From a virus (lineage: Duplodnaviria; Heunggongvirae; Uroviricota; Caudoviricetes): 64,000 bases of DNA. Numbering within the stretch: position 1 is the first letter of the stretch; each line of letters starts with the position of its first letter. The notes under the pieces are model-generated. The model made no database searches. It was given only the letters and a program-made list of their open reading frames with translations, and was not told the origin of the DNA. The stretch lies in the IMG/VR virus record IMGVR_UViG_3300015615_000629, positions 96,001-160,000 of that record. One strand, given 5' to 3'. A program made the position numbers and the translations under genes. Positions 9,309-58,838 of the stretch are shown here, piece after piece.

Positions 9309-9704
9309 TCAGTTATCATCGTTTTTGGGTTGAACATTGATAATGGCAGGATTTAAAACGCCACCAGATTCATTTGCAATTTCGCCTTCATTATGAATCT
9401 GTGTGGCTAGATTGTGATATCTACGCAATTTTTCGCCATGCAACCAAACATGAGCAAGAATTTTCACGGCACAACCGTACATAAAACCGGTAATTCCTTC
9501 GTCATCGGCAGCACGGCCAGCGTTATCGATACATTGTTCTATGGTCTCGCCGGCATCAAGGGCTGCTTCCATTCTGGTTGCCCACTCGCTGCAAAAGCGA
9601 ATTACAGCATCGCCGTAAGGGTCTTGATTGTTTTCTACAGATTTTGCCCAATCGGCTTCGCCATTGGGTTCAACAAACTTCATCGCCGGGGAATGAACTT
9701 TCAT
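9309..9704 (-). CDS. Hypothetical phage protein
   Basis: 131-aa ORF with AAGGA RBS; GITGFMYGCAV..L...W.HGE. Confidence 0.6.
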   Translation of the reverse strand: MKVHSPAMKFVEPNGEADWAKSVENNQDPYGDAVIRFCSEWATRMEAALDAGETIEQCIDNAGRAADDEGITGFMYGCAVKILAHVWLHGEKLRRYHNLATQIHNEGEIANESGGVLNPAIINVQPKNDDN

Positions 9705-9719: not shown

Positions 9720-9801
9720 TGGAAGCCGTGAGATTTGAACTCACATCTACAGAGATCGACTTGCGACTTACTCTGTTATCCTACCGTTGAACGAGGCTCC
9801 C
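9720..9801 (-). tRNA. tRNA-Ala-like RNA with enlarged anticodon loop (possible anticodon CGC)
   Basis: Acceptor GGGAGCC/GGCTTCC-A with G3:U70; D arm; T arm GTGAG-TTCAAAT-CTCAC; anticodon stem ACAGAG/CTCTGT closing a 16-nt loop. Confidence 0.65.
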
Positions 9802-10002
9802 AACTAACGCCTTAATGTCGTAACCATTTTTACAATGAGTAAGTTTTTCGAAATCTATTTCAACTTCGAAATCTATTTCTAACTCATGTGCAATTTCTTC
9901 CCAATCAATAGTATCTACCCCAAAATCAGATAAATCACACGACAAATCCCGTACCGACCCCAATTGATCCCGAAGAATACCTAAAACTTTTTCATCCGTC
10001 AT
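9781..10002 (-). CDS. Acyl carrier protein-like (attachment Ser replaced by Thr)
   Basis: DFGVDTIDWEEI..ELE.DFEVEID resembles the ACP DLGxDSLD...LEEEF.IEI pattern. Confidence 0.6.
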   Translation of the reverse strand: MTDEKVLGILRDQLGSVRDLSCDLSDFGVDTIDWEEIAHELEIDFEVEIDFEKLTHCKNGYDIKALVGSLVQR

Positions 10003-10799: not shown

Positions 10800-12062
10800 T
10801 TAAGCCCTTTTGTAACGCTTTTTGAAGAAAGCCTTTGCCTCTTCCATATGAGAAAGTCGAGTCGCCCATGCTCTTTTCGCCACCATAACACACATCATGA
10901 ACATCTGACGACTTGGGAAATCTCCAACGCCTGTAACAACCCCATCAGATATCCAAAGCCTCGGATGCTGCTGCTTGGCTAACCATTTTAAAGCTGGGTA
11001 ATCCACGACATTGGAACCGCCAGTTGTGTTTCTCCAATTTTTAACACATCTGCCGTTCTTGGCGATAATTTGCAAGGTTCCTGACTTGGTTTGACCGCTA
11101 TAAGTTGCAATCGTACAACCAGGAGCCAAACGCAGAACTTCGGCAATATCGTAGGAACTTAAAGACATACTTCCACTTACGTCAACTAATACTGTGCCGC
11201 CCTGATGGCGTTTTTTATAGCCAAATATTTTTCCGTCTATGAAATATCTGTTTAAATAACGTGGCAATGTCCCTTCGTCGTTGGCACGCCATTTTCTAGA
11301 AAATTTAGAAGGCGGCATAGTCGCAGAAATATCTTTATGTAATTTAATTTTCATTTCCCCAGGTGGAGCATAACCTTTTCCACCATGTTTAAATTGCATT
11401 TTCATCTGCTCGTCTAAATAACTTGACCCCATTTTAGACTTTTCCGAAGGACTAAGCGGACATTTTCCCTCGCCTTTAATGGCATCTAAAAATTCTTCGT
11501 AAGACATTTCATAGAAGAACTCAACATCGCCAGTCTCATCCGGTTCTTCATCCGCAAAGCCGGAAGTACGAAGAAATAAATCTTCCTTCCGAAAAAATCC
11601 CAATGTCTTCGCACAATCAATCGATGTCTCAATTACTGGGTTTTCTGCAATCCTGTTCAATAAATGACGACCAGTGGCCTTGTACCCATCCACAAAACCA
11701 TAAATTACATCATTGAGAGAATCGTGCTTCGATGCAAGTAATTGCTTCCCTTTCTCGGTAATATCTTCAGTAGTTAAATTAATCCCTAATTTACGTAACT
11801 TGTACGTAATCCTGGCTTGTTCGCAAGCTAATAATGCCTGTGGATCAACGCCGTTGTCGGCGGCTAAATTCTGAATTTCTTCGGAATCATAACCCCAAAG
11901 CATGGAACCCATGACCAGCATCCGGCTGCGGAAAGCAGCCGGATGCGTACAAGCGGTTAATTTGCCATTCTTATAAAAATTCCTGTGTAGACCAGGAGAA
12001 TCGGCGGAAACAATCTCTAAATTCTCATCGGAAATTGCTTCAACTAAAGGATAAACCTTCAT
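10800..12062 (-). CDS. vWA-domain partner of a MoxR-type AAA ATPase
   Basis: MIDAS-like VLVDVSGSM; ISDG; GGSNVVD; downstream of an AAA gene. Confidence 0.75.
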   Translation of the reverse strand: MKVYPLVEAISDENLEIVSADSPGLHRNFYKNGKLTACTHPAAFRSRMLVMGSMLWGYDSEEIQNLAADNGVDPQALLACEQARITYKLRKLGINLTTEDITEKGKQLLASKHDSLNDVIYGFVDGYKATGRHLLNRIAENPVIETSIDCAKTLGFFRKEDLFLRTSGFADEEPDETGDVEFFYEMSYEEFLDAIKGEGKCPLSPSEKSKMGSSYLDEQMKMQFKHGGKGYAPPGEMKIKLHKDISATMPPSKFSRKWRANDEGTLPRYLNRYFIDGKIFGYKKRHQGGTVLVDVSGSMSLSSYDIAEVLRLAPGCTIATYSGQTKSGTLQIIAKNGRCVKNWRNTTGGSNVVDYPALKWLAKQQHPRLWISDGVVTGVGDFPSRQMFMMCVMVAKRAWATRLSHMEEAKAFFKKRYKRA

Positions 12063-13292
12063 TTAAACTCTCTTGTATTTTCGAGTAAATTTCTTTTTCT
12101 TTTTGACCGGAGCAACTGCTTTTGGAGAGTAAATCGGCACACCAGCAGTGCTCAGTCGCAGACCCATACTTGTAATCTTTGCATGAACCTCTGCCAGGGC
12201 AGGTACATTGAAATTACGAATACAAAGAAGTTTCTCCGCAGTCCATCCAACTAAATGCCCAACAGTGGTAATGCCTTCGCCCTCTAGGCAATTGGTTGCT
12301 CTTACCGATAGTCCCAAGTCGGATATGCTGATATTTAATTTATCAGCAGTAGGTTTCTTCGCAGGCGTTTTTGACCGCCCGCCATCAATGGAAACTTTCG
12401 CTCCACATCTTTCCAATTCAGCCTTAATCCCATTGGCACGATCCTCAGAAATGTTTTCCACAAATCTGTTAGGGAGATTTTCAACCAAATCTTTGGTCTC
12501 TTTCAGCCCAAGACCAGTCATCGCCCGTACATACTTAATTACCTTTATCTTATCAGAACCAAAAGATTCCAAGATAACAGAAACAGATGCCGACCCTACA
12601 GAAACTTTGGCACCCCGCAATTTAAACGCCGCCATTACATCCTTATAGCCAGCACCAAAAATGGCTCGTGCTGCCATTTCATCCCCAACTTCCGGACGTA
12701 ATAAAGCAAATTCCTTCCAAGACCTTACAGAAATTCGCCTTTCTTCATCTTTAACCAAACCGGTTCTTTTCGCTAACTCCCGAATGTCATCAGGCAAAGC
12801 CTTCAAAGCACCTGGAGCAACCTCGTCCACATGAATCGTTACAGGAAACCTATCCCTTAATGCAGCGTTCAAATCACTAGGCTCGCCGTTCATTGTCGCT
12901 ACACAATGAAATCCAGGCAAAGGCTTAACCATTTCTCCGCTAGGTAAAGTAATATTGGCGATATCCATATCGTCCAATATGCCCAAGAGAAACGTCTGAG
13001 CGTCCCCAGAGGCTTTCTCCAACTCGTTCAACACAAGTCTAGTGCCTTTTCTCCAAGCGGAGACGCATGGACCGTCCATCCATACGTATTCCCCGCCCTT
13101 TAAACCAAAATGACCCCTTAATTCCGCAGCAGGGGTATCTTCCGTTAAAGAGAAAGAATATACATTATCATAAGCATCTGGTTTGATGCCAAAACGCTTG
13201 CCAGCATAACTCTTACCAGTACCAGATGGACCGTAAAGCAAAACGCGGTCAGTTTTAGTTAAAACTTTAGAAACTACATCCCAACAGCTCAT
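12063..13292 (-). CDS. MoxR/CbbQ-type AAA+ ATPase fused to ribosomal L7/L12 CTD and RNA polymerase alpha CTD
   Basis: Walker A GPSGTGKS, LVLNELEK, ATMN, ALRDRF; KIKVIK.VR.MTGLGLKETKDLVE (L7/L12); ISDLGLSVRATNCL..EGITTV..L...RNF (alpha CTD). Confidence 0.85.
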   Translation of the reverse strand: MSCWDVVSKVLTKTDRVLLYGPSGTGKSYAGKRFGIKPDAYDNVYSFSLTEDTPAAELRGHFGLKGGEYVWMDGPCVSAWRKGTRLVLNELEKASGDAQTFLLGILDDMDIANITLPSGEMVKPLPGFHCVATMNGEPSDLNAALRDRFPVTIHVDEVAPGALKALPDDIRELAKRTGLVKDEERRISVRSWKEFALLRPEVGDEMAARAIFGAGYKDVMAAFKLRGAKVSVGSASVSVILESFGSDKIKVIKYVRAMTGLGLKETKDLVENLPNRFVENISEDRANGIKAELERCGAKVSIDGGRSKTPAKKPTADKLNISISDLGLSVRATNCLEGEGITTVGHLVGWTAEKLLCIRNFNVPALAEVHAKITSMGLRLSTAGVPIYSPKAVAPVKKKKKFTRKYKRV

Positions 13293-14662
13293 GCTGATTT
13301 TATCCTTTTGAAGAGATTAAAAGCTTCTTTTACGTAAGGAACGCGAATAATACTGTTTCTTTTAACGACATCGAAACACATCATGGTCAACAATGGAAAA
13401 GCACTATCGCCAACTCCTGTGACAATTCCATCCGATACCCATATTCTAGGGCCGGGCATTTTAGACAACCATATGAGAGCGGGATAATCCACTATATTGC
13501 CGCCTTGTTTATAACTTAATTTGGAAGAATACGTTCCATTCTCTGCTAATATCGACAACCTTCCGCTTGACGATTCACCAGAATAGGCCGCCACCGTGCA
13601 GCCAGGAGCAGATTCAGTTATCTTTATTATTTCATCTATCGACAAACCCATACTGCTACTGGTGTCGATTAATACCGTTCCGCCCTGTGCCTTTCTTTTA
13701 ACACCAAAAATCTTACCATCAACAAAGTATCTGTTTAAATATCTCGGATGAGTACCTTCTTCGGCACTTGCCCATTTTTTAGCCTTTTGACCATTTAAAC
13801 GCCTATCCATAGTTTCTTTGCAGATAGACATATTTCCATATGAAAATCCTCCATGATGTACTTTTGACCCCTTATATTGTCCCTCAAAATGATTGCCGTA
13901 GCGGCTGCTATTTAATTCAGCCATCCCCTTCTCAAACGCTTCTTTTTCGTGAGAATTTGAGAATTTAGAATTGTTTTTCAAAAACTCTTCAAAATTGCTG
14001 GTTTCTTCAAGTTCGTCTTTAACTCTTTCCAAAATATCGTGATCTTCCGCCATAGAAGAAGCATCCTTTGCTCCCGTGCAAGTTCCAGCCGGCCGCTTAG
14101 ACGGCTTACCACCACTATCACTACGATCAGAAGATGGCTTGCCCTTCGCTTCCGAGGATTCACCCGGCTTCGGCGTAGACGGATGCTTTATTATTTCTTG
14201 AACATATCTACAAGCCTCTAACAAACAATCTACATTTCCAGACGCCGCAGAAACCATCTCTTTAAATTTAGTAACTACCGGTTCTGTGCTTTCGGCTTCA
14301 AACGCAGAGGAAATAGCAGTTATTAATGGGTTATCGTCAAAACGTCTTGTGGCAGGACATAATTCTATTTCTGTCCTTTTCAAATGATAACCAATTCTAC
14401 CAATCTCACACGCTTCTAAAATTAAAGGATTTAGGGAAAAATTGGTCGCCATATTACGGATTTCTTCATCGGATAATCCCCACTTTATCCGACCTAACGC
14501 AATTATGCGGTTTCGGCGAGCCGATTCCTTCAAATCAAGATTTAAAACCTTCTTCTCAAAATCTAAACTTTCCTTCCAGGGCGTATGATTGATTTCCCAG
14601 CCCTGTCCAAGCAGACCTTCAAACGATTCCACCAATGGGAATATCTTATCGTGCCTCAACAT
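13289..14662 (-). CDS. vWA-domain partner of an AAA ATPase (paralogue of 10800-12062)
   Basis: VLIDTSSSM, VSDG; shared EGT.PRYLNRYF.DGKIFG block. Confidence 0.75.
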   Translation of the reverse strand: MLRHDKIFPLVESFEGLLGQGWEINHTPWKESLDFEKKVLNLDLKESARRNRIIALGRIKWGLSDEEIRNMATNFSLNPLILEACEIGRIGYHLKRTEIELCPATRRFDDNPLITAISSAFEAESTEPVVTKFKEMVSAASGNVDCLLEACRYVQEIIKHPSTPKPGESSEAKGKPSSDRSDSGGKPSKRPAGTCTGAKDASSMAEDHDILERVKDELEETSNFEEFLKNNSKFSNSHEKEAFEKGMAELNSSRYGNHFEGQYKGSKVHHGGFSYGNMSICKETMDRRLNGQKAKKWASAEEGTHPRYLNRYFVDGKIFGVKRKAQGGTVLIDTSSSMGLSIDEIIKITESAPGCTVAAYSGESSSGRLSILAENGTYSSKLSYKQGGNIVDYPALIWLSKMPGPRIWVSDGIVTGVGDSAFPLLTMMCFDVVKRNSIIRVPYVKEAFNLFKRIKSA

Positions 14663-14710: not shown

Positions 14711-15517
14711 TTAAGATTTAGAGATATTAAGTGCTGCCAATACTTCCGAATAACGGCTTCCAAAAACCGCTTTGGCAGCAAGAGTAGGATTATGTTCTTC
14801 TCTCAATCGAGCAAATTCATTCCAAGAACGAACGGAAATTCTCCGCTGAGCGTCTTTAACAACGCTACAATTATAAACCACATTTCTAATATCTTCCGGT
14901 AACGCCAACAGTGCGTCCGGAGCAATCCTATCAATATTAATCGCTATCGGAAAACGATCCCTTAATGCCGGATTCAAATCCACATCAGGATCGCCATTCA
15001 TTGTTGCAACACACCTAAAACCAGAATCTGGTCTTACCGTTTCACCAGTTGGCAACGTAATACTAGCAATTCCTGGATCGTCTAGAATCCCTAATAGAAA
15101 TGTCTGAGCATCCCCAGAAGCCTTTTCTAATTCATTTAATACTAATCTGGCTCCCTTACGCCAAGAGGATACGCAAGGACCGTCCATCCATACGTATTCT
15201 CCACTTTTAAGGCCGAAATGACCTCTTAACTCAGCCGCTGGAGTATCTTCGGTTAAAGAGAAAGAAAACACCCGTTCATTAAAATTGATCTTCTCACATA
15301 GTCGCCGTTCGGCCGCTATCCAAAATTCCCTATCTTGACCATCGGGGCAACCACGTTCGGCCCAGATGAGTTTTGCTTCGGCAGCAATTTGCTCCTTAGA
15401 TGGAGCAATTCCTAACCGTTTTCCAGCATAACTTTTGCCCGTTCCTGAAGGACCATAGAGCAAAATGCGGTCAGCAGACGGCAACACCTGTTCAACTATC
15501 GACCAGCAGTCTTCCAT
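14711..15517 (-). CDS. MoxR/CbbQ-type AAA+ ATPase with DUF2934-like insertion
   Basis: GPSGTGKS; core nearly identical to 12063-13292; insert EQIAAEAKLIWAERGCPDGQDREFWIAAERRL. Confidence 0.85.
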   Translation of the reverse strand: MEDCWSIVEQVLPSADRILLYGPSGTGKSYAGKRLGIAPSKEQIAAEAKLIWAERGCPDGQDREFWIAAERRLCEKINFNERVFSFSLTEDTPAAELRGHFGLKSGEYVWMDGPCVSSWRKGARLVLNELEKASGDAQTFLLGILDDPGIASITLPTGETVRPDSGFRCVATMNGDPDVDLNPALRDRFPIAINIDRIAPDALLALPEDIRNVVYNCSVVKDAQRRISVRSWNEFARLREEHNPTLAAKAVFGSRYSEVLAALNISKS

Positions 15518-17840: not shown

Positions 17841-17841
17841 G

Positions 17842-17915
17842 TGACCCTACGGGGAGTTGAACCCGCGATTTCCAGCGTGAGAAGCTGGCGTCCTGAGCCA
17901 TTAGACGATAGGGCC
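17842..17915 (-). tRNA. tRNA-Glu(CTC)
   Basis: Cloverleaf; CCAGC-TT-CTC-AC-GCTGG; GGTTCAACTCC. Confidence 0.92.
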
Positions 17916-18287
17916 TTAATGAAATTCCACATTTTCGTTTTTGCTGTATGCGTCTCTTAAACCATTAATAAACTTTACCGCACTATCATAAACCCAACCA
18001 TGCGGGTGCCAGTAATCCCCTTCCTCTGTCTTTAATTCTTCAAGAATAGATTCTAAATCTTCAGCAATTTCAATTCCATCTTCGGGCGATATCTCTCCAT
18101 CACAGTCAGAGTGATGTAAGAGTTTGTTCAAGCCTCTACTTGGAACTTCATCCCAAGGAATCCCGTTTTCACAATATCCTTCCATTGCCTTTAAATTGAT
18201 ACCTATTTTCTCGGCAATAGTTTTACGCCAAGTCATGAAACTAGAATATGAGCCGTGCCAACAATCATGTGTTGTGTCTAAGCCCAC
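17916..18287 (-). CDS. Hypothetical phage protein
   Basis: MGLD...GSYSSF..WR...LLHHSDCDGEI. Confidence 0.65.
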   Translation of the reverse strand: MGLDTTHDCWHGSYSSFMTWRKTIAEKIGINLKAMEGYCENGIPWDEVPSRGLNKLLHHSDCDGEISPEDGIEIAEDLESILEELKTEEGDYWHPHGWVYDSAVKFINGLRDAYSKNENVEFH

Positions 18288-18771
18288 GGGTTATCCTTTA
18301 ATTCTGATATTGTATTTTAGCAAGTTCTCTTCTTAAGCCAACAAATATCTCACATCTCATATCAATCAGAACAATAAAAAGTTCGTCTGAACTATTATCG
18401 GCGGCATACATGGCCGCTCGGCAAAATTTGCCTCTGTTGAGCAAATTGTAAAAATGATCAAGGCGTTTCTTGGTGTCGTCTAAACCCACGGGTAGTACCA
18501 ATTTAATCGAGATTTAGCGATGTTGTAAGCGGCTTGAGCAACCGTTGCTTTTCCTCTGCGACGTTTAATTTTCAGAAATTCTCGAAATAGAATTCCCTGT
18601 TTTCGCCTTCTTTCGGCCATTCGCTTGTTCATGCCGATGCCTGTCCAGTCACACGAAGGTATTCAACTATCTCGTCAAATTCTTCGGCAGTAAATGCCTC
18701 TTTTTCAAGTTTTGCCCATTCCTCGTCTTCGCTTTCCATTATAGTCTAAAACTCCGAATATTTCAAGCAAG

Positions 18772-18842
18772 TGGACTCACTGGGAATTGAACCCAGATTT
18801 TTAGACTGCCAGCCTAATGTCTTCCCGTTTGACGATGAGCCC
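18772..18842 (-). tRNA. tRNA-Ala(GGC)
   Basis: G3:U70; TTAGG-CT-GGC-AG-TCTAA. Confidence 0.88.
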
Positions 18843-18856
18843 ATAAAACTTTAAAA

Positions 18857-18927
18857 TCAAGGTAGAAGAAATCGAATCTTCGCTTTCGGCTCCCCGAACC
18901 GACGGACTACCATTATCCCATACCCTG
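18857..18927 (-). tRNA. tRNA-Pro(GGG), C at position 33
   Basis: C1:G72, A73; TCGGT-TC-GGG-GA-GCCGA. Confidence 0.8.
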
Positions 18928-18931
18928 GAAG

Positions 18932-19003
18932 TAGACAGTACAGGGTTTGAACCTGTGACCTTTTCCGTGTCGAGGAAACGCTCTACCACTGAGCTAACTG
19001 TCT
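18932..19003 (-). tRNA. tRNA-Val(GAC), C at position 33
   Basis: TTTCC-TC-GAC-AC-GGAAA; canonical D and T arms. Confidence 0.9.
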
Positions 19004-19020
19004 ATAATCTATTTTTAAAG

Positions 19021-19094
19021 TGCGGCTGCGGAGAATTGAACTCCGTCTTCGAACTTGGCAGAATCGCGTGCGAAAACCACTACACTACAGCCGC
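19021..19094 (-). tRNA. tRNA-Gly(GCC)
   Basis: GCGGCTG/CAGCCGC-A; CGATT-CT-GCC-AA-GTTCG. Confidence 0.85.
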
Positions 19095-19098
19095 AAAA

Positions 19099-19170
19099 TG
19101 ACCCGTGAGGGAGTCGAACCCTCCTCTGCTGCTTGAAAAACAGCCATCCTGACCGCTAAACGAACGGGCC
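19099..19170 (-). tRNA. tRNA-Glu(TTC)
   Basis: GCTGT-TT-TTC-AA-GCAGC; GGTTCGACTCC. Confidence 0.9.
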
Positions 19171-19812
19171 TTGTGTTAATTTCTGAATTTCTTCAATTTT
19201 ATCTCGTGGCGTTAATGCTCTTGTGCAATAAATCCATTCTCCGTCTACTAATTTTAAATGTCTAATTATGTGACAGGATGCACAAACTATTTCCAAATTC
19301 TCTTCACAATTATTCAAATTATTGCCATCAATATGATGAATAAAAAGAAGAAATTTAGCTGTTTCGCCACAACCAACGCATCCTTTTGTTTCTTCGTCCG
19401 ATAATCTTTCTTTTTTTATTCTTTTTGCCAGTTGAGATTTTTCTGCTGTCCCGTAATGTGGTGGCATTATTTCTTTAATACCACCAATACGTTGAGCCAT
19501 ATCCTTGCATTTTCTAGAACAGAATCTAAATCCGGATTTTGAATTTTTAAATTTACAATCGAGCTTTTCGAATTCATCTTTACAATAATCGCAAACTAAT
19601 ATTGTTCTACGTTGTCTTCCTTTATCTGCACATTGCTTACTACAAAATCTTCTTTTACCAGTTAGAATATCTTTTGCTCTAGCCGAAAATAATGTGCCGC
19701 AACCTTCGCACTTTTTTTCCAAACCTTTACGTCTTCTGCCGCCTTCTTCGATAATCCAAATTTCCATTTTATCCTCCACATTACAAGAGTGTGGAGGATA
19801 AAATATTTGCAA
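19156..19812 (-). CDS. HNH homing endonuclease with Zn fingers, inside the tRNA array
   Basis: CEGCG..FCSKQC, CDYC..FCSRKC, C.GCG...IHHIDGN..NN.EENL..VC.SCH..RH. Confidence 0.85.
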   Translation of the reverse strand: MQIFYPPHSCNVEDKMEIWIIEEGGRRRKGLEKKCEGCGTLFSARAKDILTGKRRFCSKQCADKGRQRRTILVCDYCKDEFEKLDCKFKNSKSGFRFCSRKCKDMAQRIGGIKEIMPPHYGTAEKSQLAKRIKKERLSDEETKGCVGCGETAKFLLFIHHIDGNNLNNCEENLEIVCASCHIIRHLKLVDGEWIYCTRALTPRDKIEEIQKLTQGPFV

Positions 19813-19840
19813 TGCAAATTAATATTTTCCCAAATTTAAG

Positions 19841-19911
19841 TCCTCCCTGAAGGAGTCGAGCCTTCTACGCTTGCTTGTAATGCAAGAATGATTCCGTTTC
19901 ACCAAGGGAGG
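19841..19911 (-). tRNA. tRNA-Val(TAC)
   Basis: CTTGC-AT-TAC-AA-GCAAG; T loop CTCGACT. Confidence 0.8.
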
Positions 19912-19914
19912 AAG

Positions 19915-19985
19915 TGGACCCAGAGAGAATCAAACTCTCGCTTTCGGATTGCAAAACCGACGTACTCTCATTATACTATGAGCCC
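19915..19985 (-). tRNA. tRNA-Ala(TGC)
   Basis: G3:U70; TCGGT-TT-TGC-AA-TCCGA. Confidence 0.82.
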
Positions 19986-20017
19986 AAATTTAACTTCAAA
20001 ATTTTCAAAGAACAAAG

Positions 20018-20088
20018 TAGCCCGTAGGAGAATCGAACTCCTGTTGAAGCGATGAAAGCGCCTTCGCCTACCACTAGCGGAACGGGCC
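20018..20088 (-). tRNA. tRNA-Glu(TTC), second divergent copy
   Basis: AGGCG-CT-TTC-AT-CGCTT; AGGAG-TTCGATT-CTCCT. Confidence 0.8.
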
Positions 20089-20092
20089 AAAA

Positions 20093-20163
20093 TAGCGACA
20101 AGTGGAATTGAACCACTATAGGGAGCGTATGAAACTCCTGCACTACCGTTGTGCTATGTCGCC
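20093..20163 (-). tRNA. tRNA-Met(CAT) (elongator Met or Ile2)
   Basis: GGAGT-TT-CAT-AC-GCTCC. Confidence 0.85.
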
Positions 20164-20171
20164 ATCAAAAA

Positions 20172-20330
20172 CTATTCAACTAAATCGTTGCTATTCATCC
20201 TCTCTGTAAGAGTTTCTAACAGTTTTGGATTTCCAATTAACTTTTTCAACATTTGAACATCCGCATTGCAATCTGCTAAACGGCTTTCAAGTTGTTCAAG
20301 CAGTCGCAACACAAAATCGTTAGCGTCCAT
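20172..20330 (-). CDS. Small 52-aa ORF inside the tRNA array (not in the ORF track)
   Basis: AAGGA RBS; MDANDFVLRLLEQLESRLADCNADVQMLKKLIG... Confidence 0.5.
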   Translation of the reverse strand: MDANDFVLRLLEQLESRLADCNADVQMLKKLIGNPKLLETLTERMNSNDLVE

Positions 20331-20424
20331 TTTCGTATCCTTCTAGAGAAGTGAAACCCACTACCCTATAGGGACACAAAACAGGCTGCTAGCCGCCACA
20401 ATTCCGTGAATTTTCTCCAAAAAG

Positions 20425-20498
20425 TCGGAATGGACGAATTCGAATCGTCGGCCTCTCGCTCCCGAAGCGAGCGCTCTTCCAAACTGAGCTACATTCCG
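20425..20498 (-). tRNA. tRNA-Pro(CGG)
   Basis: CTCGC-TT-CGG-GA-GCGAG. Confidence 0.92.
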
Positions 20499-20506
20499 AT
20501 AACTAA

Positions 20507-20577
20507 TCAAGGTAGTTGGAATCGAACCAACGCCCCGAGCTTCCAAAACTCGTAGACTACCACTATCCCATACCCTG
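20507..20577 (-). tRNA. tRNA-Pro(TGG)
   Basis: CGAGT-TT-TGG-AA-GCTCG. Confidence 0.9.
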
Positions 20578-31846: not shown

Positions 31847-33616
31847 TCACCTAACGTAAAAAACAGGTGCTTTGGTTGGAAAAGGCAATCGGTAATTATC
31901 CGGCAGCAAATAAGCATGGTCTCGATCTACAGGCACCTTCACTATATCACAAAAACCGTCAGTGACAATTAACAAAGGACCATTAGCTGGGAAATCATTA
32001 GCTTTGTGTATAAAGTCGATTGCTGGCTGTAGGATTGTGCCACCTCTTCCCTTAACCTTTGCCCCAGCCCCCAATAGGACTTCTGGTACGATATATCCGC
32101 CATCGTAATAGGTTGCATCGCAATAAACCATTCTAATTCGTTGAACATTACGAGAAATGCTATAATTCGCTATAGTGCCAAGGCATTCGGCAATCTGATG
32201 CCGATCCATTGACATAGAAGTATCGAAAACAATTCCAAAGGTTCTTTCTTTCTCATATTGAGACGCTACACGGGCAGGACGGGGAATATCTGGCGTAGCA
32301 AAACTTCTCCTACTTAATCGGGCATAGGTTCTACGCTTGGCAAGTGGCTGAAAATGTCCATCAAACCATTCTGCAAGTTTAACGTTCCAAGGCATAGGTG
32401 GCCTTGATAAGGCTTTAATCTCTTCTTCAAGACCAGCAGGAATAAAACCACGACCTTCAGACTCGTGCAAATGATATCCATCAATTAAAGCATTTCTAAA
32501 AAATTCATCCAAATCCATGCCTTCTGGAGTCTGCCACCAGTCACGGTCGTCTAGCATATCTCCAAGATGTCCGCGTAACGTCAACATTCTCTTGTATCTT
32601 GAATCTCCAATAATCTTATCGTAAATTTCCTCGGCAGAAAGCCCATCAAAAGCCCTATCATAACAACCACCACGGATAAAAGTGCCCACTTTCATATCAA
32701 CCAGCCAAGCATTAATCAGGAAATCACAAGCAATATTCCAAACATAAGGGTCTCTGCCTTCACGGCGAGCAATATGTCTTAGAGCCACATGAAGTAATTC
32801 GTGTGCCATTAAGAACTTACGTTCTTCCATTGTTAGTGGATAATTAGGATTTACATAAATTTCCTTTAGTTCGGCACTAACGGCACCAGTGGTGATTTGT
32901 AATCTTCGGCAAATATCTCTATCTTCAACAATTTTAAAAGCGGCGGCCAGAATGGCTAAAAGTGGAAAGTTATTCTCAAACCATTCTAGGGCCTCTATGT
33001 TGGCACTTTTGATTGGAGTTTTATCCCCGAAGCCAGCAATACGGCCGCCAGCGATTGAAATAGATTGACTAACAGCAGCCGATATTCCTTGGGCGAAGAT
33101 TTCCGACCATTTGTATTTTCTGCCAAGCCATTTAATATTTTTAACAAATCTAAAATCTACATGTTTATAGCTGGTTGTCAGATTCGTGCAAATATCAGGA
33201 ATGCCATGATTGGCGAAATGTTCATATAATTGTTCTTCATTTCCCCTTGGGATCAATTCAGCATTTACCCGCATTTGGGCAGGAGGCGTTCCTAAATCAA
33301 TATCATTTAGGAATCTAGCGATAACGCAATGGCAGGCAGCAGCCCAGGCATCAGGAATTGCTTTTTCTTTAAAATGCTCAAAGCAGAGGTGAAGGACACA
33401 ATGGCCGAAAACGTAGAGCCATTCATTTGGCTCAAGACGTTTGTTCATATCAACATAAATAACATCGTTGCTCGCAGGTTCAGCAATTCCGCCACTTAAA
33501 TCCATATCCTCGAAACGAACATAGTTCATAAAATAAAACAAAAAAGGTTCCGAAGACGCCTTTTGGATGGCATCTTGAAACCTTTTTTTAGCAATATCAC
33601 TAACTTTTCTTTTCAT
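31847..33616 (-). CDS. DUF2201-like metallopeptidase + vWA protein
   Basis: HCVLH and HELLH motifs, WNIACD..IN, VFDTSMSM, GRGGT, TDG. Confidence 0.85.
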   Translation of the reverse strand: MKRKVSDIAKKRFQDAIQKASSEPFLFYFMNYVRFEDMDLSGGIAEPASNDVIYVDMNKRLEPNEWLYVFGHCVLHLCFEHFKEKAIPDAWAAACHCVIARFLNDIDLGTPPAQMRVNAELIPRGNEEQLYEHFANHGIPDICTNLTTSYKHVDFRFVKNIKWLGRKYKWSEIFAQGISAAVSQSISIAGGRIAGFGDKTPIKSANIEALEWFENNFPLLAILAAAFKIVEDRDICRRLQITTGAVSAELKEIYVNPNYPLTMEERKFLMAHELLHVALRHIARREGRDPYVWNIACDFLINAWLVDMKVGTFIRGGCYDRAFDGLSAEEIYDKIIGDSRYKRMLTLRGHLGDMLDDRDWWQTPEGMDLDEFFRNALIDGYHLHESEGRGFIPAGLEEEIKALSRPPMPWNVKLAEWFDGHFQPLAKRRTYARLSRRSFATPDIPRPARVASQYEKERTFGIVFDTSMSMDRHQIAECLGTIANYSISRNVQRIRMVYCDATYYDGGYIVPEVLLGAGAKVKGRGGTILQPAIDFIHKANDFPANGPLLIVTDGFCDIVKVPVDRDHAYLLPDNYRLPFPTKAPVFYVR

Positions 33617-34664
33617 TTTTCTTTTTTCCCAATCTTGGCATATCCCGAAATATTTCGGTCAAAAACCAAGTCGGCAACAGTCTCTCGTGTTTGTTTGATA
33701 CAAAAATCTGTGCCAATTCAAAATTCGTATCAACTAATTGTCTAAGCAGACGTTTTGAATTATGAGCAAACTCTTTTTGTTCGGTATTGAGTCTAGAGCC
33801 ATCGGCTGGGAGATCGTGAATAACTCTTTCTCTAAAAGCATCGACAAGCCAATGTAAGACATCCAATTCAGCAGGTTCACTTGGCCAACGGCGTTCGCCA
33901 GCAATCAAATCACGCAACATTTTTTCTGGATCGTGGAATTTGCCAAAAGCCGAGAAGCCTTTGGCGTGAATCGCACTTAAATTCGCACTGGCAATAACCG
34001 AAATGTACTCTGGAGTGATGATTTTTCTAGCCTTAAGACAATCACTGACCATATGCCAACTACGTGGCGTAGAATAAGGTTCTTCGGTAGCAGGTGGTTC
34101 AGAATGCAGATGAGATGGTTTTGATTTAATATAATCAAATACAAGTCTGTGGATGCTGTTTGTTCCTGCCCAATCGAGCCATTCTTTAGGGCTAACTTTC
34201 AACCCAATATGAACCATTCGGTTAATAAGGGCAGAACCCATTGGCTTGACCAAAGCGGTATCAGAAGCCCTATTACCAGCCCCGATTACAATAGAACCGG
34301 CCGGCATTCTATATTCACCAACTCGGCGGTCGTGAATTAGGCTATAAAAAGACTTTTGAACATCGAATTCACTAGCATTAAGTTCGTCCAAGAAGAGACA
34401 ATAAGGATTGTCTCGGGCGATCATGCTAGGAGGATAGAATTTGGTATATTTATCATCAATTTTGGGGCAGCCGATAAGGTCTTCGGCGGCAATTTGGCTA
34501 CCCAAAAGGGTAACGCATTCCATGCCAACGCTTTTAGCAAAAAGTTCTACTAAAGCGGATTTGCCGATTCCTGGCGGACCCCAAATGAAAACCGGACGTA
34601 CAGGGGCTACGTCCAGTAATATCTCCATTAGTTCGCTTGGCGGTACTGCTTTTATGTTACGCAC
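33600..34664 (-). CDS. MoxR-type AAA+ ATPase
   Basis: WGPPGIGKS, LFLDELN, GAGNR, ALINR, TPRSW. Confidence 0.9.
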   Translation of the reverse strand: MRNIKAVPPSELMEILLDVAPVRPVFIWGPPGIGKSALVELFAKSVGMECVTLLGSQIAAEDLIGCPKIDDKYTKFYPPSMIARDNPYCLFLDELNASEFDVQKSFYSLIHDRRVGEYRMPAGSIVIGAGNRASDTALVKPMGSALINRMVHIGLKVSPKEWLDWAGTNSIHRLVFDYIKSKPSHLHSEPPATEEPYSTPRSWHMVSDCLKARKIITPEYISVIASANLSAIHAKGFSAFGKFHDPEKMLRDLIAGERRWPSEPAELDVLHWLVDAFRERVIHDLPADGSRLNTEQKEFAHNSKRLLRQLVDTNFELAQIFVSNKHERLLPTWFLTEIFRDMPRLGKKKNEKKS

Positions 34665-47852: not shown

Positions 47853-48348
47853 CTATATTAAACCTTTTCCTAATCGAGTGTATTGCTCTTTGACCACGTT
47901 GCATGGCAGCAACTCGTGAGATTCCCAGCCCATCGCCTATTTCCTGCCAGGAAAGCCCATTTAGATAATGCTGAGTTAGTATTTTTCTGTTAAGAATATC
48001 AGCATCTGTGTCGTCTGGTGATTCTGTTAAGAAATAAGATAAATCTAGGAAATCTAGTCCTGTTTCACTCCAGGTTGGTTCAAAATCTAATGATTCTGTT
48101 CGTCTTAAACGACGAGATTTTCTGCCAGAAATAATCCTATTCCGCATACAGCGAAAAGCGAATTTTGAAAAAAATGGAGTTTTGGTCTCGTCAAAAGATT
48201 TAGCCGCATCCAACAACCCATCTACAGCATCAGAATATTCCGGAGTATCTTCGACTGGACCGCTAGGAACGTAAGAACGACATATCTTACGTGCAAGCCC
48301 AAGATGTTCCGCAGCGTTAATTTTCTTTAGGGAAATCATTCGGCACAA
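47842..48348 (-). CDS. Small sigma70-family sigma factor (regions 2 and 4)
   Basis: HLGLA..I...DAVDGLLDAAKSFD....PFFSKFA...MRN; LSWQEIGDGLGISRVAAMQ. Confidence 0.8.
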   Translation of the reverse strand: MCRMISLKKINAAEHLGLARKICRSYVPSGPVEDTPEYSDAVDGLLDAAKSFDETKTPFFSKFAFRCMRNRIISGRKSRRLRRTESLDFEPTWSETGLDFLDLSYFLTESPDDTDADILNRKILTQHYLNGLSWQEIGDGLGISRVAAMQRGQRAIHSIRKRFNIDVE

Positions 48349-57361: not shown

Positions 57362-57614
57362 ACTTGTATTTATATATGATCCTTAGATAATCCTTCATTT
57401 CGCCCTCGACTCTAGAACGAGCAAAAGTAGAAAATAAGATATTTTTATCTATTTTGTATCTAATTGAAGCCTTGACAAGCCCCATATAAGCCGCAGATTT
57501 TAATTCATCAAAGCTTATACGTTTACTGGCTTTTCTAAAATATTTGGCGGCCAAGCTATTTGCAAACGGCATATAGTTGACAACAAGTTCGTTTCGTTCT
57601 TCTAAAGTTAACAT
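57345..57614 (-). CDS. Truncated sigma70-family protein (region 2 only)
   Basis: RNELV..Y...A..LA...DELKSAAYMGLVKA..RY......FSTFA..R..GEM.DYLR; no region 4. Confidence 0.75.
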   Translation of the reverse strand: MLTLEERNELVVNYMPFANSLAAKYFRKASKRISFDELKSAAYMGLVKASIRYKIDKNILFSTFARSRVEGEMKDYLRIIYKYKYETLS

Positions 57615-57624
57615 AAAGTTCTCA

Positions 57625-58838
57625 TGAAATTACTCAACCATAAAGGCCGAATTTCCGATCCAACCAGTAGCTTTCTATGAAGAAAGTCTAACACCAGGAC
57701 AATCGGCTATCCCCGTAATTCCTACGGTTCTATTTTGCTCATTTAATCCTTGTCTCAATATGTTTTTAGCAGCATTTAGATCCCGCCCCAAATGCTTGTT
57801 ACACCTTGGACAAGTCCATTCTCGATCATTTAATGTTAAACTATCATTTATATAACAACACTCATTACAAGTCTTTGAGGATGGAAACCAGCGACAAATT
57901 TGTATAAATTCCCGTCCATACCAACGTGATTTATACTCAATTTGTCGTATTAACTCATATAATGAGCAATCTTGAATGGCTTTTGACAACTTACGATTCT
58001 TCATCATTCCACTTATGTTCAAATCTTCCATAATGATAACTTGGTTTTCGCTAACGATTTTATGGCTAATTTGGTGTAAATGGTTATTTCTAATGTTGGC
58101 GATCTTGTTGTCTAGTTTGGCTAATCTTATTCGTGCTTTTTCTCTACCTTTTGAACCTTTTATAGTTCTTGAAAGGGCTTTGGCTCGAATTCGTCGGGTT
58201 TTTTCAAGTGTTCGATATGGTTTGATATTCTTGTATATTGTTCCATCTGAGCAGATGGCTAAGTCTTTGACTCCTAAATCAATTCCAACGGTTTTGTCAG
58301 TTTTAGGAAGTTGTTCAATAGTTCGTTTAACACAGACACTTACAAAATATTGCCCAGCTTTGTTTTTTATTACGGTCACGTTTCTTATTTCGCCTTCTAT
58401 TTGTCGATGAAGATTTATCCTTATTCCTTCTTTAAATTTAATGATGTGTAGATTGTCATTTTCAATTCTTATGTTTTGTGGAACTCGGAACGATTGTTTT
58501 GCATGACGTTTTTTGAATTTGGGAAAACCACTAAGTTTCTTATAGAATCTGTTGAATGCTCCATCTAGGTGCTTGAGGGCGTATTGAAGGCTTTGGGCAT
58601 TGACCTCATTTAACCACTTAAAGTCTCTCTTAGTTTCAGTAAGGACTTTGTTATCATCGAAATAATTCAAAGATTTCTTGTCTAAATCTTTTTCTTTTGC
58701 TTCAAGGTAAAACTTTGTTCGGTTGTCAAGGAAATGATTATAGCACCAACGGACGCAACCAAAATGTTTAGACAATTTGATTTCTTGTTCTTTTGTTGGA
58801 TAAAGTCTGAATTTATACGTGTAATCTGTTGGCTTCAT
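57625..58838 (-). mobile_element. tnpB: Solo IS200/IS605-family (IS1341-like) tnpB with right-end omegaRNA region; CDS 57675-58838
   Basis: YKFRLYPT HTH; RuvC GIDLG / EDL / RDLNAA intact; SSKTC..C..WTC..C; hairpins ending in TTCA at 57625; no tnpA nearby. Confidence 0.9.

What the first reader, a model, noticed from the sequence alone, without database searches (positions are those of the whole stretch)
12063..13292. MoxR AAA+ ATPase fused to ribosomal L7/L12 CTD and RNA polymerase alpha CTD
Seen: after the AAA core come a full L7/L12 C-terminal domain (~12390-12585) and an alpha-CTD (~12150-12345), then a basic tail. The sister ATPase at 14711-15517 lacks both. Established: L7/L12 CTD recruits translational GTPases; alpha-CTD binds UP DNA, activators and NusA; MoxR/vWA pairs remodel client proteins. 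Inference: the hexamer would display six copies of each host interface as bait, capturing or remodelling translation and transcription factors, or decoying defences that monitor them.
Basis: partly seen in the sequence, partly recalled or inferred. Interest (0 to 1): 0.72.

Follow-up and report, generated by a model that had tools for sequence, protein, structure and literature searches.

The report
Phage ATPase carrying two host domains
A giant bacterial virus has joined pieces of two host proteins, one from the ribosome and one from RNA polymerase, onto one of its protein-remodelling motors; the fusion is real, old and seen nowhere else, but each piece has precedent on its own and what the fusion does is untested.

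Summary
Observation confirmed. ORF 12063-13292(-) of a complete 572-kb phage genome is a MoxR-type AAA+ ATPase (aa 1-226) followed in frame by an L7/L12 C-terminal domain (236-302, E 9e-24), an RNA-polymerase alpha-CTD (315-381, E 2e-15) and a basic tail. A chimera is unlikely: silent sites are saturated against the nearest donors (25% identical; GC 87% versus 33%) while conserved residues are kept. It is copy B of a duplicated ATPase/vWA cassette; the host is probably a Planctomycete. L12 keeps its GTPase-binding face. The alpha-CTD keeps helix 1 but lost the hairpin glycine (G296N), so UP-DNA binding is doubtful. The three-domain protein is a singleton, and none of 137 family loci carries either domain. 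Precedent: L12-CTD inserts in phage proteins and in MoxR-system vWA proteins are published; I confirmed separate MoxR/alpha-CTD fusions in Gemmataceae, which this scan had noted on other DNA. Best reading (0.40): the domains dock the motor at host translation and transcription factors while the vWA partner grips the client. Binding is not shown and read support could not be checked. New variant of a known kind.

The parts
12063..13292 (-). Fusion gene, ATPase B (409 aa): MoxR-type AAA+ / L12 CTD / alpha-CTD / basic tail
   Evidence: start overlaps the stop of vWA-A (ATGA) and its stop abuts the ATG of vWA-B
12615..13292 (-). AAA+ core aa 1-226: Walker A aa 21-28, Walker B LVLNE aa 86-90, sensor I N135, arginine finger R148, sensor II R190
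   Evidence: AAA_5 1.3e-17; motifs invariant in 32-57 relatives; model pLDDT above 90, nearest solved folds NorQ and CbbQ
12387..12587 (-). Ribosomal L7/L12 C-terminal domain, aa 236-302, without the N-terminal dimerisation domain and hinge
   Evidence: PF00542 8.7e-24; E. coli K65, I69, K70, R73, L80, K81, E82, K84 kept, V66 is I as in most bacteria; 25 of 28 conserved columns kept
12150..12350 (-). RNA polymerase alpha C-terminal domain, aa 315-381, of Planctomycetia type; helix 1 intact, second hairpin altered
   Evidence: PF03118 1.8e-15; R265, N268, C269, N294 kept; G296N, K298P, S299A, E261G; tree; model pLDDT about 90 over the domain
12066..12149 (-). Lys/Arg-rich tail, aa 382-409, net +10, predicted disordered
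10800..12062 (-). vWA partner B (420 aa): degenerate metallopeptidase-like N-domain (no HExxH), C-terminal vWA-like domain with DxSxS (D294/S296/S298)
13289..14662 (-). vWA partner A (457 aa), paralogue of B (45% identical over the C-terminal 207 aa), no HExxH, DxSxS (D333/S335/S337)
14711..15517 (-). Sister ATPase A (268 aa) with a DUF2934 domain inserted at aa 42-72 (about 15302-15394)
   Evidence: sister of ATPase B in the tree, SH-aLRT 94; DNA 71-79% identical in the longest repeats

Best explanation
A mobile two-gene cassette (MoxR-type ATPase plus peptidase-like/vWA partner) was duplicated in a huge phage that probably infects Planctomycetes, and copy B then gained two host-derived interaction domains at the end of its AAA+ lid (shown by sequence and tree; order of events inferred). 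The ATPase forms a ring and works through the vWA partner, whose metal site grips the client (inferred from NorQ/NorD, CbbQ/CbbO). The added domains are peripheral docking arms: L12 CTD binds host translational GTPases by its intact helix 4-5 face, the alpha-CTD binds protein partners through helix 1 with weakened DNA binding, and the basic tail adds nucleic-acid affinity (all inferred). Several weak arms per ring give avidity and place the motor at the host's translation and transcription apparatus, on which this phage depends. The client is unknown.
For: Both domains are preferentially conserved where cellular proteins are conserved: L12 25/28 versus 12/36, p 8e-6; alpha-CTD 12/14 versus 12/45, p 1e-4; silent sites saturated. 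Factor-binding residues of L12 intact (site described in PMC6753160). 124 of 137 family loci have the vWA partner and no third gene is conserved. The phage has no detectable RNAP beta or EF-type GTPase but has sigma-like genes. The alpha-CTD and the phage ClpX are closest to Planctomycetia, so the domain matches the likely host. MoxR-type systems picked up the same modules independently: alpha-CTD on another MoxR subfamily in 2 of 26 Gemmataceae, L12/ClpS inside vWA partners (PMC7159879). RavA uses a C-terminal domain for docking (PMC6987120).
Against: No binding data. One sequence only, so no conservation across relatives. The rest of the family, about 1900 members in one Atlas cluster and mostly viral, works without these domains. 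Retention of conserved columns can reflect selection on folding as well as on binding, and part of it may predate capture. The link from ring to L12 is only about 9 residues, unlike the long ribosomal hinge. A phage bL12-domain protein associated only weakly with ribosomes (PMC6375957). Walker B is N-E, so ATPase activity itself is untested.
Confidence: 0.4

Rival explanations
1. Generic add-on modules. L12-CTD, alpha-CTD and DUF2934 are small promiscuous domains used here as sticky or nucleic-acid-binding arms, or to bind phage proteins, for a chaperone with an ordinary phage job such as virion assembly; the canonical host partners are not involved.
For: 119 of the top 149 hits are mostly multi-copy L12-CTD proteins and 30 are alpha-CTD proteins of varied architecture. 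The family often carries add-ons: DUF2934-like in 11 of the top 120, and 29 of 44 N-terminal extensions are basic. MoxR/peptidase-vWA pairs in jumbo phages were proposed to act in virion assembly (PMC7824862).
Against: The most conserved part of the L12 domain is the exposed basic factor-binding face. Neighbouring genes are small non-structural ORFs, Tad4 and tRNAs, not virion genes.
Confidence: 0.25
2. Decoy or sponge. The ring is a multivalent scaffold that titrates translation factors and activators away from the host, or soaks up host defence proteins that watch or modify L12 and alpha-CTD; ATP hydrolysis and the vWA partner are secondary.
For: Isolated domains without ribosome or RNAP anchors, protein-binding faces kept and the DNA hairpin altered. 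An anti-defence gene (Tad4) lies 2.4 kb away, and a second free alpha-CTD-like gene is in the genome.
Against: All ATPase motifs and the vWA DxSxS are kept and the genes are tightly coupled. The phage needs host GTPases and RNAP itself. I found no report of a defence system that senses these two domains (titles and abstracts only).
Confidence: 0.2
3. Tolerated passengers. The domains were captured and are decaying without function.
For: Singleton; G296N and neighbouring changes; branch 0.41 against under 0.15 for most RpoA.
Against: Silent sites fully turned over with frame, fold and conserved columns kept.
Confidence: 0.1
4. Assembly chimera of phage and host DNA.
For: One contig only; no read check possible.
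Against: It needs three in-frame joints at domain edges from two unlinked host genes (rplL and rpoA). GC3 and codon adaptation of both domains lie in the phage's range. The best cellular identity is at most 60% with saturated silent sites. The stop abuts the next ATG.
Confidence: 0.03

Closest known systems
MoxR AAA+/vWA pairs (NorQ/NorD, CbbQ/CbbO, RavA/ViaA, phage CobS-like; PMC13036017, PMC6987120)
   Same: AAA_5 core, nearest solved folds NorQ and CbbQ, adjacent vWA gene with DxSxS.
   Different: Walker B N-E, short lid, partner with a dead peptidase-like domain, cassette duplicated, host-derived L12 and alpha-CTD domains at the C-terminus; client unknown.
Jumbo-phage MoxR / metallopeptidase-vWA pair (Iyer et al. 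2021, PMC7824862; DUF2201 type)
   Same: Same two-gene layout in a very large phage; relatives of the partner carry HExxH.
   Different: The partner here has no DUF2201 hit and no HExxH; the DUF2201-type pair of this phage is a separate locus at 31847-34664. Identity with the published accessions was not tested.
Phage bL12-domain proteins (Mizuno et al. 2019, PMC6375957)
   Same: L12 CTD with conserved factor-binding residues placed inside a larger phage protein whose homologues lack it.
   Different: Carrier is a MoxR ATPase, the domain is followed by an alpha-CTD, and the genome is 572 kb (cultivated bL12 phages in that paper were under 80 kb).
L12/ClpS insertions in vWA proteins of MoxR-vWA-beta-propeller ternary systems (Kaur et al. 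2020, PMC7159879)
   Same: L12 CTD recruited into a MoxR/vWA system.
   Different: There it is in the vWA protein of a bacterial three-gene conflict system; here it is on the ATPase of a phage two-gene cassette.
Gemmataceae MoxR/alpha-CTD fusions (loci L153, L155; scan note e1-2113159)
   Same: AAA_5 followed by a Planctomycetia-type alpha-CTD (50-52% identical to the phage's); in L153, tandem ATPases before a DUF2201_N gene.
   Different: Different ATPase subfamily (Walker B D-E, no significant alignment to the phage core), no L12 domain, cellular.

Membership tests
MoxR-type AAA+ ATPase | AAA_5/MoxR core with Walker A, sensor I, arginine finger, sensor II | tested here: met
   fold nearest NorQ/CbbQ
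MoxR-type AAA+ ATPase | Canonical Walker B hhhhDE | tested here: not met
   N89-E90; N in 114 of 120 parsable matches of this subfamily; the catalytic E is kept
MoxR-type AAA+ ATPase | Adjacent vWA partner with a MIDAS motif | tested here: met
   DxSxS and the later Asp (WxSDG) kept; the Thr position appears to be Asn family-wide; partner at 124 of 137 loci; structural neighbours include VWA/CobT_C clusters at low TM
MoxR-type AAA+ ATPase | Hexamer formation and ATP-driven remodelling through the vWA partner | not testable with these tools
   inferred from PMC13036017
Ribosomal protein bL12 | N-terminal dimerisation/L10-binding domain and hinge | tested here: not met
   TIGR00855 matches model 50-124 only, 72.4 bits, under the cut-off of 84.4
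Ribosomal protein bL12 | CTD with basic helix 4-5 factor-binding site | tested here: met
   residue list from my knowledge of the L12 literature, site location from PMC6753160
RNA polymerase alpha subunit | N-terminal assembly domain | tested here: not met
   rpoA models match the C-terminal part only, far under cut-off
RNA polymerase alpha subunit | CTD 265 determinant for UP DNA (R265, N268, N294, G296, K298, S299) | tested here: inconclusive
   R265, N268, N294 kept; G296N, K298P, S299A. Planctomycete RpoA itself has T at 298. R265/K298 cited in PMC9178005; the rest from my knowledge
Phage bL12-domain proteins (Mizuno 2019) | bL12 CTD in a phage protein whose homologues lack it | tested here: met
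Jumbo-phage MoxR/metallopeptidase-vWA pair (Iyer 2021) | vWA partner with an active N-terminal metallopeptidase | tested here: not met
   HExxH absent from both partners, present in 25 of 33 relatives
MoxR-vWA ternary conflict systems (Kaur 2020) | Conserved third component (VMAP, beta-propeller, FtsH, iSTAND) | tested here: not met
   no conserved third gene over 55 loci; bpMoxR 24.1 bits, under the cut-off of 27

The most novel reading that the evidence does not exclude
A phage AAA+ motor that uses captured host interfaces to engage translation GTPases and transcription regulators at once, and with its vWA partner actively remodels or strips host gene-expression complexes during takeover.
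Probability: 0.15. Interest if true: 0.8.

Novelty: new variant of a known kind. Interest (0 to 1): 0.42.

Why it matters
If the docking reading holds, this protein names candidate partners for a large, mostly viral MoxR/vWA family with no known client, and gives a direct test of why phages keep splicing L12 C-terminal domains into unrelated proteins, open since 2019. The sister cassette without the domains is a built-in control. The repeated, independent gain of alpha-CTD and L12 CTD by MoxR/vWA systems suggests a real link to gene-expression machinery. The limits: one uncultured genome, no host in hand, no binding shown.

Tried and rejected
Independent copies of the fusion or of vWA-B in viral and metagenome contigs: none. 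Tandem L12+alpha-CTD elsewhere: none among the best 150 of 1.84 billion representatives, in near or shorter length classes (word-based, limited) or in 50,697 phage records; longer proteins were covered only. Mixed alignments for a full-length fold misaligned the fragments, so the full model has no alignment for the extension (alpha-CTD unfolded there, an artefact) and domain packing is unknown. The motif GAKVS occurs both before and at the end of the L12 domain; I considered it a relic of a tandem-repeat donor, but the profile found no second copy and only 7 of 245 repeat pairs have that spacing: unresolved. L12 donor taxon: not resolved (best 58% Pirellulales, 57% Vicinamibacterales). Phage ADP-ribosyltransferase acting on R265: nothing found, control also blank. 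Promoter and terminator scan at chance level. DNA ligase as host marker: no hits. The alpha-CTD tree is a quick tree on 69 columns with support 85; no donor test was run. No complex prediction was run: L12 with EF-G is a textbook pair and the true host is unknown.

Full report
Setting. The window lies at 96001-160000 of a 572,167-bp virus record with direct terminal repeats, rated complete. It is 39.6% GC and uses all three stop codons. It encodes sigma-like proteins but no detectable RNA polymerase beta subunit or EF-type GTPase, so it depends on the host's machines.

The observation. ORF 12063-13292(-) is one 409-aa frame with AAA_5 (aa 17-149), Ribosomal_L12 (238-302, 8.7e-24) and RNA_pol_A_CTD (315-373, 1.8e-15), all above Pfam cut-offs, then a tail of net charge +10. 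Relatives end at about residue 226-230, so the 183-aa extension is an addition. Neither domain brings its anchor: no L12 N-terminal domain, no alpha assembly domain.

Is it real? Reads could not be checked and the protein is on one contig. Indirect evidence is strong. Codon adaptation (0.72 and 0.67) and GC3 (0.36, 0.37) of the two domains lie inside the phage's range. Against 25 Gemmataceae rpoA genes the alpha-CTD is 56% identical in protein, but fourfold sites are 25% identical, with GC 87% in the donors and 33% in the phage; L12 shows the same pattern against a broad set. Columns conserved in cells are preferentially kept: L12 25/28 versus 12/36 variable ones (p 8e-6), alpha-CTD 12/14 versus 12/45 (p 1e-4). 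The gene starts in an ATGA overlap and its stop abuts the next ATG. This is an old fusion under purifying selection, though some of that selection may predate capture.

The cassette. The order on the minus strand is ATPase A (14711-15517), vWA-A (13289-14662), ATPase B (the fusion), vWA-B (10800-12062). The ATPases are sisters (SH-aLRT 94; 68% identical), which points to a local duplication followed by different additions: DUF2934 in a loop of A, L12 and alpha-CTD at the end of B. The family is a two-gene unit: 124 of 137 loci have the vWA gene, no third gene is conserved, and its Atlas clusters are about 90% viral. Walker B is N-E throughout; other motifs are intact and the fold is nearest NorQ and CbbQ. 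Both partners keep DxSxS but have lost the HExxH that 25 of 33 relatives carry.

Rarity. No other protein among the 120 best homologues has either domain; 0 of 137 loci carry one in frame or nearby; none of 149 best matches to the extension among 1.84 billion representatives has both; no phage record covers both. Separately, each domain is promiscuous: multi-copy L12-CTD proteins, one with a P-loop, and alpha-CTDs on TPR, kinase, GYF and sigma proteins.

Origin. The alpha-CTD shares a 17-residue stretch (16 identical) with Planctomycetia RpoA, scores best against Planctomycetes and falls in their clade (support 85). The phage ClpX also scores best there, and the closest cellular copies of the cassette are in Gemmataceae bins, in 2 of 121 genomes. 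A Planctomycete host is likely, not proven. The L12 donor is unresolved.

Interfaces. L12: K65, I69, K70, R73, L80, K81, E82 and K84 of E. coli are kept; this is the basic helix 4-5 site that binds IF2, EF-Tu, EF-G and RF3 (PMC6753160; residue list from my knowledge). Alpha-CTD: R265, N268, C269 and N294 are kept, but G296, present in 41 of 41 RpoA proteins, is N, with P and A at 298-299 and G at 261. It still folds in prediction. The same surface serves DNA and activators such as Rob, MarA and SoxS (PMC9178005), so weaker DNA binding with residual protein binding is the simplest reading. G296 changes also occur in other non-RpoA copies.

Mechanism. In NorQ/NorD the ring pulls on its vWA partner, which acts on the target (PMC13036017); in RavA a flexible C-terminal domain docks the ring on LdcI (PMC6987120). 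I therefore read the added domains as docking arms that place motor B at host translation and transcription factors, with vWA-B choosing the client (0.40). Rivals: generic sticky modules on an ordinary phage chaperone (0.25; the family often has basic or DUF2934 add-ons), multivalent decoy (0.20), passengers (0.10), chimera (0.03). Architecture, selection and residue states are shown; binding, ring formation and function are inferred.

Known relatives. Phage proteins with inserted bL12 domains, absent from their homologues, are described (PMC6375957). L12/ClpS insertions in vWA proteins of MoxR systems are described (PMC7159879). MoxR with peptidase-vWA pairs are described in jumbo phages (PMC7824862). 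An earlier scan note reported MoxR/alpha-CTD fusions in Planctomycetes; I found two, in another ATPase subfamily, so that pairing arose at least twice. Other notes report L12-CTD on unrelated ATPases (not tested here). I found no description of both domains on one ATPase in the papers searched.

Verdict. Real, selected and unique as a three-domain protein, but built from known kinds of capture and seen once. New variant of a known kind; interest 0.42.

Noticed in passing
window 9309-9704 (-): Tad4 type I Thoeris inhibitor (PF25186, 1.6e-25), an anti-defence gene 2.4 kb downstream of the fusion.
   Followed up: no
window 9781-10002 (-): Acyl-carrier-like protein (PP-binding, 1.5e-4, just above cut-off).
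   Followed up: no
window 31847-34664 (-): A third MoxR/vWA pair: AAA_5 ATPase (33600-34664) and a DUF2201_N metallopeptidase/vWA protein with HExxH (31847-33616).
   Followed up: partly
L003:1423-1740 (-), genome C1:69997-70314: A free, diverged alpha-CTD/HhH protein of 105 aa next to an HD-domain gene and a Planctomycete-like ClpX; not closely related to the fused copy.
   Followed up: partly
window 17841-20577 (-): Array of 11 tRNA genes for Glu, Ala, Pro, Val, Gly, Met; earlier notes propose a leader-peptide attenuator upstream, not tested here.
   Followed up: no
window 48109-48309 and 57381-57587 (-): Two sigma-70 region-2-like matches above cut-off; the second lies in a 94-aa frame next to a transposase-family gene at 57675-58838.
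   Followed up: no
window 12063-12100 and 10800-10830: ATPase B and vWA-B end in similar basic motifs (K-x-Y-K-R-x-stop); cause unknown.
   Followed up: no
window about 12590-12610 and 12387-12405: GAKVS occurs just before and at the end of the L12 domain; possible relic of a tandem repeat or of microhomology, unresolved.
   Followed up: partly
L155:516-2783 (-): Gemmataceae frame AAA_5 / alpha-CTD / AAA_5, with S at the G296 position.
   Followed up: partly
protein P0148: 680-aa P-loop NTPase with three tandem L12 CTDs; looks KAP-like from memory, not tested.
   Followed up: no
L043 (genome G001): Record titled Alcaligenaceae but drawn with the Gemmataceae family and with Planctomycete-type RpoA: probably a mislabelled bin.
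   Followed up: partly
genome C1:338660-338920 (-): A second DUF2934-like small protein in the phage genome.
   Followed up: no
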